Assembly: GCF_058153355.1 (NCBI RefSeq)
Contig: NZ_CM177019.1
Length of the DNA: 64,000 bases
Reading direction: 5' to 3' (one strand)
Shown: positions 1-3,000 of the stretch, piece by piece
How positions within the stretch are numbered: position 1 is the first letter of the stretch
How the letters are laid out: every line of letters begins with the position of its first letter
Made by a program: the position numbers

Positions 1-3000
1 TCACCGTCGGATTTACTGCTACGTCGCCCTCAGGGAATTAAACCTAAAAAGAAAATCGTCAAAATTAGAGATTCCGGTTTGACACGGAAAGTCATATCAG
101 CGCTGAAATGACATCACTTGATGATGCTGGTGGACGTGCGCAGGTTGTCGGGAGTCGTCTTATCGTCCTGGCAGACCAGCCGAAATATACAGGCGAAGGA
201 ACGGGCATCAAGAAAATCACGGGCGGCGACCCCGTGGAAATAAACCCGAAATATGAGAAGCGTTTTACGGCGGTAATCAGGGCGGTGGTGCTGGCAACCA
301 ATAACAATCCGATGATATTCACCGAACGGGCCGGAGGTGTGGCACGTCGTCGCGTGATTTTCCGTTTCGACAATATCGTCAGTGAGGCCGAAAAAGACAG
401 GGAGCTACCGGAAAAGATTGCGGCTGAAATCCCCGTTATTATCCGCCGCTTGCTGGCGAACTTTGCCGACCCTGAAAAGGCACGGGCTTTACTCATTGAA
501 CAGCGTGACGGTGATGAAGCACTGGCAATAAAGCAACAGACGGATCCGGTTATTGAGTTTTGCCAGTTCCTGAATTTTCTGGAGGAAGCGCGCGGCCTGA
601 TGATGGGCGGTGGTGGTGACTCTTCCAGGTACACGACCAGGAACAGCCTTTACCGAGTCTATCTGGCGTTTATGGCATACGCCGGAAGGAACAAGCCGCT
701 AAATGTGGCTGAGTTCAGCAAAGCTATGAAACCCGCTGCGAAAGTTTACGGGCATGAATATATTACTCGGAAAGTTAATGGGGTTACGCAGACTAACGCA
801 ATAACAACAGACGATTGCGATGCGTTTTTATAATTTTTTGCAAAAGCCCTCTACTTCCTCTACCTGAATGAAATAAACGCATATTATTCAATATGATAAG
901 TTGGTAGAGGGCTATGTAGAAGGCTAATAAAAGCCCTCTACCTCTTCTACCTGATTTTATCAATTCCAGGTAGACAGGTAGAGGGCTGGTAGAAGGGGAT
1001 TAAAAGCCCTCTACCATGCTGAAAGGTGCGCCATTGCTGGCTTTTTGTGGTGCTTGGTAGAAGTGGTAGAGGGGGGGAGGCACAACTCAAAACTTTTTAA
1101 ACGAGGGGGTAAAAACAAAAATGCACACATCAGGAAAACTTAATAATCAGAAGAAACCACATAACCGCACTATTGACCTTACAGAGCACTGGCTGAGGTT
1201 GGCGATAAAAATCATCGATCGCAACACGGGAGAAGGATACGCAAAAGCACATCCCGAACTGATAAGCGCATTTATGACCACGGCGGCGGCAAACTTTGCC
1301 ACGCTGACAGAACGGGAGATTGCCGAAGCGGAACAGGTAACAACCATCAACGTTAAAACCGGAGAGGTGGAATCATGACAGCACAGATATCAGCTTACGG
1401 GCGGCTGGTGGACGACCCGCAGGTAAAACAGACCAGCAAGGGCACACCGATGACGCTGGCGCGTATGGCGGTATCTTTACCATGCAGCCAGGCACAGGAC
1501 GGGCAGGCGACGTTATGGCTGTCGGTCATCGCATTTGGCAAACAGGCCGACTTCCTGGCTAAACATCAGAAAGGCGACCTTATCAGCGTATCCGGCGCAA
1601 TGCAGGTAAGCCAGTGGACAGGCCAGAACGGCGAAACGCGGCAGGGATGGCAGATTATCGCAGACAGCGTAATCAGTGCCAGAACGGCGCGACCGGGCGG
1701 CAAAAAAGGCCAGCAGGGCCAGACTACTGACGCACTGAACAGGGCGAAACAACAGGCGGGCAATGATGATCCGTACGGGGATAACATACCGTTTTAATTC
1801 ACAACAGCGAACAGACTACTTACTGAGGAAAGTATGACAAAGCTGACCATTAACAGAAAACCTAAAGGTATTTATGACACACCGCAAAAAACGATTCAGG
1901 AGGAACTGGAGCAGCAGGATAAAGCCACTCTGGCACATACAGTGATGCCCAATAACCAGAAAGTGCAACCGAAGCTTACAGAAGCAACACCGTGGCAGCA
2001 TATGACCAGACGCCAGAGAAAGAACCGCAGACGTATTAATCGCCTTATTGAGTTATGGCCAGAACTATTCAACCGGGAAGCACCGAAACCATTAAAAAAA
2101 GGGATATTCGACGATCTGATACAGGATATTGCTGTCAGAGAACTGACCTTTGGTCCCGGGGTGCTACGTGCAGCAATAACATCTTATACACAATGCCCTC
2201 GCTATTACCGTGCATTAATGTCCGGTGATGTACGTTACGACATGAAAGGCCGGCCATGTGGCAAGGTAACACCGAAAGAGCAGCGTGACGCAGAAGCACA
2301 ACTAATGGCGTTGCATGCACAGCGCGAATGCCGGCACAGGACAACCAAGAAAGAGAAAAGTGTATGATTCACGACAGCAAAGCGGAAGCACTGGAAGCGC
2401 GTGGCCTGTACCGGAGAGCGGCGGCGCGGTGGGCTGAGGTCATCATGCTGGCGAATGATGACAAGGCACGGGAGCAGGCGGCAAAACGTCGCGCGGAATG
2501 TATCCACAAGGCAGCACGCCCACCAGCAAGGCAGGATAATTTCGGGGAGATGCGCGAAACCATCAGCCGGGCACATGCCGGGATGGGATTACATCAGCCC
2601 AATGGTAAGGCATTCAGGAAATACCCTGGATCGAAAAACTGCAGTCAGTGACGGAGGCCGGGATTTTTCCCGGCTTTTTTGTGCCAGTAAAAAGCCCGCA
2701 GCCAGAAGTGTTGCGGGCTTTGTTTTTCAGGTGATTGAAGTCAATGGGAAGAACGCGATCATCATGCGTTATCGTTTCATGAATTGCAATGATGTAGATC
2801 GTCATTTCAGTTTATGCAATCATAACCATTGTTTTGTTCAGGAGATATGACTATGAGAAAAGCCAGCGTGAAGCCCGTTTTACTCGCTCGTGATCAGATT
2901 GAAGCATTACAGCGCATCCAGGACGAGGAACGCCGCAATTCTCCGCTGGGGATTGCTCCGAGCATTCATGAGGTTGCCCGGCGTTTAATGCAGCGGGCGC

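What the first reader, a model, noticed from the sequence alone, without database searches (positions are those of the whole stretch)
842..1080. Dense iteron array downstream of the primase gene
About a dozen copies of a CTCTACC/GGTAGAG core in both orientations, including three exact AAAAGCCCTCTACC and two GGTAGAGGGCT copies, lie right after the primase C-terminal ORF. This fits an iteron-type replication origin. It differs from the P4 crr/ori octamers I recall.
Basis: partly seen in the sequence, partly recalled or inferred. Interest (0 to 1): 0.4.

Follow-up and report, generated by a model that had tools for sequence, protein, structure and literature searches.

The report
Replication origin of a satellite island
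The repeat cluster is the replication origin of a phage-parasitic chromosomal island (a PICI, relative of satellite phage P4); a homologous origin in E. coli CFT073 has already been shown to work, so the find is real but ordinary, and here the island's own initiator gene has been cut by an insertion sequence.

Summary
Twelve GTAGA cores, ten of them full GGTAGA/TCTACC hexamers, lie in both orientations at 850-1070, where about 0.06 hexamers are expected. One detail is wrong: only two AAAAGCCCTCTACC copies are exact.

The interpretation as an iteron origin is supported, but the kind is already described. The 288-bp gap aligns end to end (72% identity) with the gap after pri in EcCICFT073. In that island a pri-ori plasmid replicates, and versions lacking ori or pri do not (Fillol-Salom 2018).

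- In 65 distinct homologous origins, the hexamer cores are kept at eight aligned sites in 58-64 sequences. The bases beside them vary freely.
- The layout fits the PICI/SaPI rule: two iterons, a 79% A+T stretch (865-902), then oppositely oriented iterons.
- The last ~90 residues of the adjacent primase-helicase are a P4-alpha-type winged-helix origin-binding domain (PDB 1KA8, profile E 9e-25).
- The satellite vB_KppS-Ant has the same iteron order and spacing but P4-type TGTTCACC cores. P4's crr sits in the same place after alpha.

In this window pri is cut at about codon 338 by an IS110-like ISSso6 element. The origin is therefore orphaned and could fire only with Pri supplied in trans. Interest is low.

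The parts
1..98 (+). Right end of an IS110-like ISSso6 insertion sequence that truncates pri. The junction lies somewhere in about 87-104.
   Evidence: Window 1-104 is 100% identical to many Shigella and E. coli copies. In L089 it lies just downstream of an annotated ISSso6 transposase. Homology to pri starts at window 99 by DNA and 87 by tblastn.
99..833 (+). 3' remnant of pri (Pri/Rep primase-helicase of the P4 alpha / D5 family). Only residues ~338-585 remain. The D5_N domain and the first part of the SF3 helicase P-loop domain are lost.
   Evidence: tblastn of CFT073 Pri residues 338-585 matches window 87-830 at 95.6%. Pfam finds DUF5906 profile positions 41-109 of 114 only, plus Pox_D5. 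The full-length architecture is D5_N, DUF5906, Pox_D5. The fragment is 42% identical to P4 alpha.
540..806 (+). Coding region for the C-terminal winged-helix origin-binding domain of Pri, still intact.
   Evidence: Residues 145-233 of the 241-aa ORF match PDB 1KA8, the P4 alpha origin-binding domain. E is 1.3e-5 for the single sequence and 8.8e-25 for the family profile.
850..864 (-). Left iteron pair: TCTACT 850-855 and TCTACC 859-864, 9-bp spacing.
   Evidence: TCTAC is kept at this site in 63 of 65 sequences and TCTACC in 64 of 65.
865..902 (.). A+T-rich spacer (79% A+T), the proposed melting region.
   Evidence: It is the most A+T-rich 35-mer of the gap in the window, CFT073 and STEC1012. 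PMC6092414 Fig. [quoted passage not shown]
903..920 (+). Iterons right of the A+T-rich region, in the opposite orientation: GGTAGA 903-908 and TGTAGA 915-920.
   Evidence: The second copy is present in 36 of 65 homologues. The others have TTTTT at that site and an inverted copy further on.
937..951 (-). Iteron pair: TCTACC 937-942 and 946-951.
   Evidence: kept in 58 and 63 of 65.
969..993 (+). Iteron triplet: GGTAGA at 969, 977 and 988.
   Evidence: The copies at 977 and 988 are kept in 63 of 65. The copy at 969 is specific to this sub-variant (2 of 65).
1010..1015 (-). Single iteron TCTACC.
   Evidence: 63 of 65.
1019..1041 (.). Conserved block without iterons, CTGAAAGGTGCGCCATTGCTGGC. It is part of the origin region; its role is unknown.
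   Evidence: Mean column conservation is 95% in 65 distinct origins, and the block is also present in the divergent STEC1012 origin. No consistent hairpin was found.
1056..1070 (+). Terminal iteron pair: GGTAGA 1056-1061 and 1065-1070.
   Evidence: The copy at 1065 is kept in 63 of 65. The copy at 1056 scores 31 of 65 only because of a 1-nt alignment shift. One relative (L084) carries a 9-bp duplication that adds a third copy.
1121..1797 (+). Downstream replication-module genes: an 85-aa ORF (phrog_1231) and ssb.
   Evidence: The gene order is the same in EcCICFT073 and other islands.

Best explanation
This is the vegetative replication origin (ori) of a Gram-negative phage-inducible chromosomal island of the EcCICFT073 type. 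The proposed mechanism is inferred from homologues, not shown for this locus. The island's Pri protein is an SF3 helicase of the P4-alpha/D5 family. Its C-terminal winged-helix domain binds the GGTAGA hexamers. Hexamers of the protein load themselves on either side of the 38-bp A+T-rich stretch (865-902) and melt it. Replication then proceeds independently of DnaA, which amplifies the excised island for packaging by a helper phage. In this window the origin looks intact, because every conserved core site is present. Its cognate pri gene, however, is cut at about codon 338 by an ISSso6 insertion. The origin therefore cannot fire on its own and would need a Pri of the same specificity supplied in trans.
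For: Shown here:
- The hexamers are strongly clustered.
- The gap is homologous over its full length to the gap after pri in EcCICFT073, and the same primase-gap-orf85-ssb order recurs in islands that carry int, alpA and capsid genes.
- Core hexamers are kept at 8 aligned sites in 58-64 of 65 distinct origins while the adjacent 5 nt vary. Core columns score 0.92 against 0.77 for the rest (Mann-Whitney p 1e-9).
- The array travels with pri and not with the downstream gene. STEC1012 and vB_KppS-Ant have different downstream genes.
- The Pri C-terminus is a P4-alpha origin-binding domain.
- The iteron core changes together with that domain. Ant and P4 share 50% identity in it and both use TGTTCACC-type repeats. 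The window, CFT073 and STEC1012 share 73-93% and all use GGTAGA. Identity between the two groups is only 27-33%.
- No DnaA box, IHF site or GATC lies in the gap.

From the literature:
- EcCICFT073 pri-ori supports plasmid maintenance, while delta-ori and delta-pri versions do not. PICI origins have two iteron sets flanking an AT-rich region (PMC6092414).
- SaPI Rep proteins bind 5-6-nt iterons through a C-terminal winged helix and load themselves (PMC9371898).
- P4 alpha binds its origin through its C-terminal winged helix (PMC4889955).
Against: - No experiment exists on this copy, and binding of this Pri to GGTAGA is inferred.
- The published figure giving the iteron sequences could not be read. 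I therefore cannot confirm that the authors' iterons are these hexamers, or exactly what their delta-ori deletion removed.
- The A+T-rich stretch is not central: two cores lie to its left and ten to its right.
- The co-variation of iteron and domain rests on a single switch between two clades, so it counts as one evolutionary event.
- pri is truncated here, so a present-day function in this genome is doubtful.
Confidence: 0.9

Rival explanations
1. The array is an operator or promoter region. The repeats would bind a regulator, possibly Pri itself, to control transcription of the downstream orf85-ssb operon rather than to start replication.
For: The last iteron pair ends about 50 bp before the orf85 start. 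The segment from 1085 to the ATG is about 95% conserved. Iteron-binding initiators often also repress transcription, which is general knowledge from plasmid Rep proteins.
Against: Promoter-like matches are no more frequent than in shuffled sequence, and none lies near the downstream gene. The array stays with pri when the downstream gene differs. Deleting the homologous region abolishes plasmid maintenance. A secondary regulatory role is not excluded.
Confidence: 0.05
2. The array is a packaging or recombination site (cos, pac or att) recognised by the island's terminase-like or Cox-like protein or by the helper phage.
For: The island encodes a small-terminase-like HTH protein at 4392-4919. 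Dense inverted repeats are also typical of such sites.
Against: P4's annotated record places the equivalent repeats in crr, a region required in cis for replication, which is separate from attP and cos. The repeat core co-varies with the Pri DNA-binding domain. The literature assigns this position to ori.
Confidence: 0.02
3. The repeats are a coding artefact or belong to a hidden small gene, such as the - strand ORFs at 793-963 or 947-1090.
For: Two mechanical ORFs of 56 and 47 aa overlap the array.
Against: Variation among 65 homologues shows no excess at third codon positions. 122 of the 392 alignment columns carry indels in at least one sequence. No CDS is annotated in this gap in any of seven RefSeq records. 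There is no Rfam match.
Confidence: 0.01
4. It is a dead relic: an origin by descent that now has no function in this genome because its initiator is destroyed.
For: pri has lost its N-terminal 337 or so codons to ISSso6. No second pri copy lies in the 64-kb window. int and alpA are not in the window.
Against: All conserved core sites are intact, so the DNA should still respond to a matching Pri from a co-resident island. This reading concerns present activity, not identity, and it is compatible with the best explanation.
Confidence: 0.6

Closest known systems
EcCICFT073 ori (Gram-negative PICI origin; Fillol-Salom et al. 2018, PMC6092414)
   Same: It holds the same position directly after pri. 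The gap aligns along its whole length at 72% identity. The core is the same GGTAGA hexamer at the same aligned sites. The A+T-rich spacer and the conserved GCGCCATTNCTG block are shared. The Pri origin-binding domain is 93% identical, and the downstream orf85-ssb genes are the same.
   Different: The bases next to the cores differ. Here four to five copies are homogenised into an 11-mer, GGTAGAGGGCT, whereas CFT073 has GGTAGAC or GGTAGAT. One core near 916 is in the opposite orientation. Cargo genes differ (ProQ, DUF2213 and a terS-like gene instead of capsid and decoration genes). Here pri is truncated by an IS.
Phage P4 crr / ori (type 1 octamers bound by gp alpha)
   Same: The initiator is homologous (42% identity over the C-terminal 228 aa; winged-helix domain matches 1KA8). 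P4 crr lies directly after the alpha gene, like this array. Each 120-bp crr repeat carries the sub-pattern one forward, three reverse, A+T-rich, two forward, which also occurs in the middle of this array.
   Different: The core is TGTTCACC rather than GGTAGA/TCTACC. P4 needs two separate sites, ori and crr. Intact relatives of this island have a single cluster. P4 crr is a duplicated 120-bp unit.
Origin of the satellite 'Escherichia phage vB_KppS-Ant' (LR881103)
   Same: Twelve cores follow the same order and nearly the same spacing: two reverse, A+T-rich, one forward, three reverse, three forward, one reverse, two forward. Once Ant's 17-nt longer lead is subtracted, offsets from the pri stop agree within about 13 nt.
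   Different: The cores are P4-type GTGAACA/TGTTCACC. The Pri winged-helix domain is only 29% identical to this one and 50% identical to P4 alpha. It lacks the GCGCCATTNCTG block.
SaPI origins (SaPI1, SaPIbov1; Ubeda et al. 2007, 2012, as summarised in PMC9371898)
   Same: They sit immediately 3' of the initiator-helicase gene. They have 6-12 iterons of 5-6 nt and an A+T-rich region with at least two oppositely oriented iterons on each side. The initiator is a self-loading helicase with a C-terminal winged helix.
   Different: There is no detectable DNA homology. The match to SaPI5 PriRep is weak (7OLA, E 0.0085, ATPase part only). In SaPIs the A+T-rich region is roughly central, whereas here it is near the left edge.
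Plasmid iteron origins (pSC101, R6K, F, P1 type)
   Same: They have repeated initiator-binding sites next to an A+T-rich region and next to the initiator gene.
   Different: Those use 17-22-bp direct repeats, a RepA-type initiator, DnaA boxes and host DnaB loading (established knowledge). Here the cores are 6 bp, occur in both orientations, lack any DnaA box, and are served by an SF3 helicase-initiator.

Membership tests
PICI / SaPI-type replication origin | Lies immediately 3' of the initiator (pri/rep) gene | tested here: met
   The stop codon is at 831-833 and the first core at 850.
PICI / SaPI-type replication origin | Six to twelve short (5-6 nt) iterons | tested here: met
   There are 12 GTAGA cores, 10 of them full GGTAGA hexamers. 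The criterion is quoted from PMC9371898.
PICI / SaPI-type replication origin | A+T-rich region flanked by at least two iterons on each side, pointing in opposite directions | tested here: met
   Cores at 850-855 and 859-864 lie on the - strand. The 79% A+T stretch spans 865-902. Cores at 903-908 and 915-920 lie on the + strand. The region is off-centre, with 2 cores to the left and 10 to the right.
PICI / SaPI-type replication origin | Cognate initiator-helicase with a C-terminal winged-helix DNA-binding domain | tested here: met
   The match to PDB 1KA8 has E 1.3e-5 for the single sequence and 8.8e-25 for the profile. The SF3 helicase domain DUF5906 is present in full-length relatives.
PICI / SaPI-type replication origin | Sequence homology to an experimentally validated PICI ori | tested here: met
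   The gap is 72% identical over 303 of 306 nt to the EcCICFT073 gap. Function of that region is reported in PMC6092414. The island identity was checked through its capsid and decoration genes c1499 and c1500.
PICI / SaPI-type replication origin | Supports replication when Pri is supplied, and Pri binds the iterons | not testable with these tools
   This needs a plasmid maintenance assay and EMSA or footprinting.
PICI / SaPI-type replication origin | Sits in an island with int, alpA, a unidirectional gene order and phage-interference or packaging genes | tested here: inconclusive
   The window holds only the right-hand part: the pri remnant, ssb, ProQ, PerC, DUF2213 and a terS-like gene. The left part lies beyond the IS and the window edge. 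Intact relatives do carry int and alpA.
Phage P4 ori/crr | Type 1 octamer TGTTCACC repeats | tested here: not met
   There is no match with up to one mismatch in 842-1080. P4's own repeats are annotated in NC_001609.
Phage P4 ori/crr | Two separated cis sites (ori plus crr) | tested here: not met
   Intact relatives L001-L003 have a single GGTAGA cluster. The left half of this island is missing, so the test could be run only on relatives.
Phage P4 ori/crr | Initiator of the gp alpha family with a homologous origin-binding domain | tested here: met
   The fragment is 42% identical to P4 alpha over residues 3-230, and it matches 1KA8.
Plasmid RepA-type iteron origin | Direct repeats of 17-22 bp plus DnaA boxes | tested here: not met
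   The conserved unit is 6 bp and occurs in both orientations. No DnaA box with up to one mismatch was found.

The most novel reading that the evidence does not exclude
The PICI ori may be the evolutionary counterpart of P4's crr. A single 12-iteron order and spacing has been kept across P4-family satellites, while the iteron core switched (TTCACC to TCTACC) together with the Pri winged-helix domain. This would create separate replicon specificity groups. Small differences beside the core track two or three residues in the presumed recognition region (AEFSK versus NDFGK) and might subdivide these groups further. As a corollary, this orphan origin could still be fired in trans by a co-resident island of the GGTAGA group.
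Probability: 0.45. Interest if true: 0.3.

Novelty: already known. Interest (0 to 1): 0.12.

Why it matters
The result has little importance beyond correct annotation. It marks the left part of this window as a decayed EcCICFT073-type satellite island sitting next to the ETT2 secretion-system locus, and it shows that the island can no longer replicate on its own.

The comparison has some modest value for people who work on satellite replication and incompatibility. It indicates that the functional unit is the 6-bp GGTAGA core. It shows that the order and spacing of cores are shared with a satellite that uses P4-type octamers. It also shows that P4's crr occupies the same position after the initiator gene.

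Tried and rejected
- **Phage records:** a megablast of 1-2400 against phage records found nothing. Relatives appeared only through a protein search.
- **Rfam:** a scan of 1-7000 at a permissive threshold gave only sub-threshold chance hits, none in the array.
- **Promoters and terminators:** the scan of 600-1400 gave no more promoter-like sites than shuffles and no terminator.
- **Conserved block 1019-1041:** I looked for a conserved hairpin around it in 38 distinct sequences. RNAalifold returned only pairing between inverted iterons, at -4.7 kcal/mol, so I dropped the idea.
- **Host-factor sites:** I searched for DnaA boxes, IHF sites and GATC sites in the gap and found none.
- **Hidden gene:** I tested the - strand ORFs for codon periodicity and rejected a coding origin.
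- **Finer specificity:** I tested whether the base after the core follows a Pri motif. AEFSK goes with G, A or T at that position, and NDFGK with C or T and never A. The two features lie only 100-300 bp apart and share ancestry, so I do not count this as evidence.
- **Published iteron sequences:** I tried to read them in PMC6092414, but they are only in a figure.
- **Literature search:** one search failed on a too-short term.
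Full report
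**1. What is in the sequence**

The 288-bp gap between the stop codon of a primase-family ORF (108-833, stop at 831-833) and the next gene (ATG at 1121) is packed with one short motif.

- The hexamer GGTAGA occurs at + strand starts 903, 969, 977, 988, 1056 and 1065.
- Its complement TCTACC occurs at 859-864, 937-942, 946-951 and 1010-1015.
- Two more pentamer cores lie at 850-854 (TCTAC) and 916-920 (GTAGA), giving 12 cores in all.

The density of the hexamer in the rest of the window predicts 0.06 copies per 251 bp, and 10 are seen (Poisson P about 1e-19). No other 251-bp stretch of the 64-kb window holds more than two.

- The 7-mer GGTAGAG occurs six times here, out of seven in the whole window.
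- GGTAGAGGGCT is exact twice on each strand.
- AAAAGCCCTCTACC is exact only twice. The copy at 842 ends in T.

Neighbouring cores of the same orientation are 8-12 bp apart, roughly one helical turn. A 38-bp stretch at 865-902 is 79% A+T. Two cores lie to its left on the - strand, and two lie just to its right on the + strand.

**2. Context**

The ORF before the array is not a whole gene. Window 1-104 is 100% identical to a sequence found in many copies in Shigella and E. coli replicons. In an annotated genome that sequence lies just downstream of an IS110-like ISSso6 transposase gene.

Homology to full-length primase genes begins at about window 87-99, which corresponds to residue 338 of the 584-aa protein. 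Full-length relatives carry a D5_N domain, an SF3-helicase P-loop domain (DUF5906) and a Pox_D5 C-terminal domain. The copy here keeps only profile positions 41-109 of 114 of the helicase domain, plus the C-terminal domain.

Downstream lie the following genes:
- an 85-aa ORF
- ssb
- a ProQ/FinO gene
- a PerC gene
- a DUF2213 (protease-like) gene
- a small-terminase-like HTH gene

Further on come a SocA/Panacea gene, an IS66 transposase, a family-15 glycoside hydrolase (annotated ygeQ in E. coli) and a type III secretion cluster.

**3. Identity**

The gap has homologues in 563 of 5426 complete E. coli genomes. Wherever I inspected the annotation, it lies between a 'DNA primase family / P4 family primase' gene and the same small ORF.

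In strains NCTC86, CFT073 and A34 it sits inside 10-11-kb islands. Those islands carry an integrase, an AlpA-type regulator, an Icd-like gene, DUF4222, the primase, ssb, PerC and capsid or terminase genes. The CFT073 island is EcCICFT073, recognised by its capsid and head-decoration genes c1499 and c1500. It is the prototype Gram-negative phage-inducible chromosomal island.

Fillol-Salom et al. 2018 (PMC6092414) state that the region immediately 3' of the replication gene is the origin. [quoted passage not shown] They report that a thermosensitive plasmid carrying EcCICFT073 pri-ori is maintained at 44 C, while versions lacking ori or pri are not. A later survey repeats that the origin lies downstream of pri in these islands (PMC10111431).

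The window's gap aligns with the CFT073 gap over 303 of 306 nt at 72% identity.

**4. Evidence of selection on the cores**

I collected 87 homologous loci, 7 from E. coli records and 80 from IMG/VR, which gave 65 distinct origin sequences.

- At eight aligned sites the hexamer is kept in 58-64 of the 65 sequences. The five bases next to each core take many forms; at site 977, for example, they read CGGCA, CACGG, TACGG, GGATG and GGGCT.
- Core columns are more conserved than the other columns of the gap (0.92 against 0.77, Mann-Whitney p 1e-9).
- The functional unit is therefore the 6-bp core.
- One relative (L084) has a 9-bp duplication that adds an iteron.
- Variation shows no excess at third codon positions for the two - strand ORFs. 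Indels are common, and no CDS is annotated in the gap in seven RefSeq records. A coding origin for the repeats is therefore rejected.

**5. The initiator and how the origin most likely works**

The last 90 or so residues of the adjacent protein match PDB 1KA8, the origin-binding domain of phage P4 gp alpha. E is 1.3e-5 for the single sequence and 8.8e-25 for a six-member family profile. The whole fragment is 42% identical to P4 alpha.

P4 alpha binds its origin through this C-terminal winged helix (PMC4889955). SaPI Rep proteins bind 5-6-nt iterons in the same way, and they load themselves without a helicase loader (PMC9371898).

No DnaA box, IHF site or GATC lies in the gap, which fits an initiator that acts without the host's machinery.

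The inferred mechanism has three steps. Pri's winged helices bind the GGTAGA cores. Hexamers assemble on both sides of 865-902 and open it. The helicase then drives replication of the excised island. Only homology and architecture are shown here; binding and melting are inferred.

**6. Comparison with P4 and other satellites**

In P4's annotated genome, crr (the 'cis required region for replication') starts 46 bp after the alpha stop codon. It holds ten type 1 octamers in both orientations. The window's array therefore occupies the position of P4's crr.

The 16.5-kb satellite vB_KppS-Ant has, after its primase, twelve P4-type cores (GTGAACA/TGTTCACC). Their order and spacing are almost the same as here. 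The order is two reverse, A+T-rich, one forward, three reverse, three forward, one reverse, two forward. Once Ant's 17-nt longer lead is subtracted, offsets from the stop codon agree within about 13 nt. Each 120-bp P4 crr repeat shows the middle part of this pattern.

Winged-helix domain identity follows the iteron type:

| Pair or group | Identity in the winged-helix domain | Iteron core |
|---|---|---|
| Ant and P4 | 50% | TGTTCACC |
| Window, CFT073 and STEC1012 | 73-93% | GGTAGA |
| Between the two groups | 27-33% | different |

This amounts to one switch event, so it is suggestive rather than statistical.

Unlike P4, intact islands of this family have a single iteron cluster and no second site. 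No P4 octamer occurs in the array.

**7. Rivals**

- **Operator or promoter role.** This is not supported by the promoter scan. It also fits poorly with the fact that the array stays with pri when the downstream gene changes. A secondary autoregulatory role cannot be excluded.
- **Packaging or attachment site.** This is unlikely given the P4 annotation, the co-variation with Pri and the published replication assay.
- **Dead relic.** Whether the origin is still used in this genome is a separate matter. With pri truncated and no second pri in the window, it is probably silent unless a matching Pri is supplied in trans.

**8. Verdict**

This is a member of an already characterised origin family, the PICI ori of EcCICFT073 type and a relative of P4 crr. 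It sits in a decayed island whose initiator gene has been cut by an IS.

The conserved block 1019-1041 (95% conserved, no iteron, no hairpin) remains unexplained. Interest is low.

Noticed in passing
window 1-104: This is the right end of an IS110-like ISSso6 element, 100% identical to many Shigella and E. coli copies. It truncates pri at about codon 338, which suggests a Shigella-like, IS-rich host genome.
   Followed up: partly
window 1019-1041: The block CTGAAAGGTGCGCCATTGCTGGC contains no iteron but is about 95% conserved across 65 distinct origins and is present in the divergent STEC1012 origin. The P4-type Ant origin lacks it. No conserved hairpin and no DnaA, IHF or GATC motif was found, so its role is unknown.
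   Followed up: partly
L091 (LR881103) 2250-2520; L090 (P4) 2293-2592: The satellite vB_KppS-Ant carries twelve P4-type TGTTCACC cores after its primase gene, in the same order and spacing as the GGTAGA cores here. P4 crr lies directly after alpha and shows part of the same pattern.
   Followed up: yes
L084, region aligned to window 1045-1070: A 9-bp duplication (AAGGTAGAT) adds a third iteron to the terminal pair. This is a natural change in iteron copy number.
   Followed up: no
window 690-720 (Pri residues ~195-205 of the fragment) and relatives: The Pri motif AEFSK versus NDFGK, inside the winged-helix domain, correlates with the base that follows GGTAGA. AEFSK goes with G, A or T, and NDFGK with C or T and never A. 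The correlation is confounded by close physical linkage.
   Followed up: partly
window 12364-30000: A type III secretion cluster lies here: an AraC-type regulator, an SPI-1-type secretin, HrpJ-like, FHIPEP, ATPase and PrgH genes. It follows a family-15 glycoside hydrolase gene (annotated ygeQ in E. coli), so it looks like the ETT2 locus. The FHIPEP gene appears split (15956-17485 and 17389-18015), which suggests a frameshift. Overall window G+C is only 44%.
   Followed up: no
window 6351-6836 and 7714-9285: A SocA/Panacea-domain antitoxin-like gene and an IS66-family transposase (- strand) lie between the island remnant and the hydrolase gene.
   Followed up: no
window 1834-2651: The island carries a ProQ/FinO-domain gene that overlaps the start of a PerC-family activator gene. 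PerC homologues on PICIs are reported to affect LEE expression (PMC6092414).
   Followed up: no
L003 (E. coli A34) 3098-13731: The closest E. coli relative of this origin (94% identity) sits in an island flanked by rcnR on one side and clpS on the other. This differs from the roxA/phoQ site of EcCICFT073, so the same replication module occurs with different integration modules.
   Followed up: no
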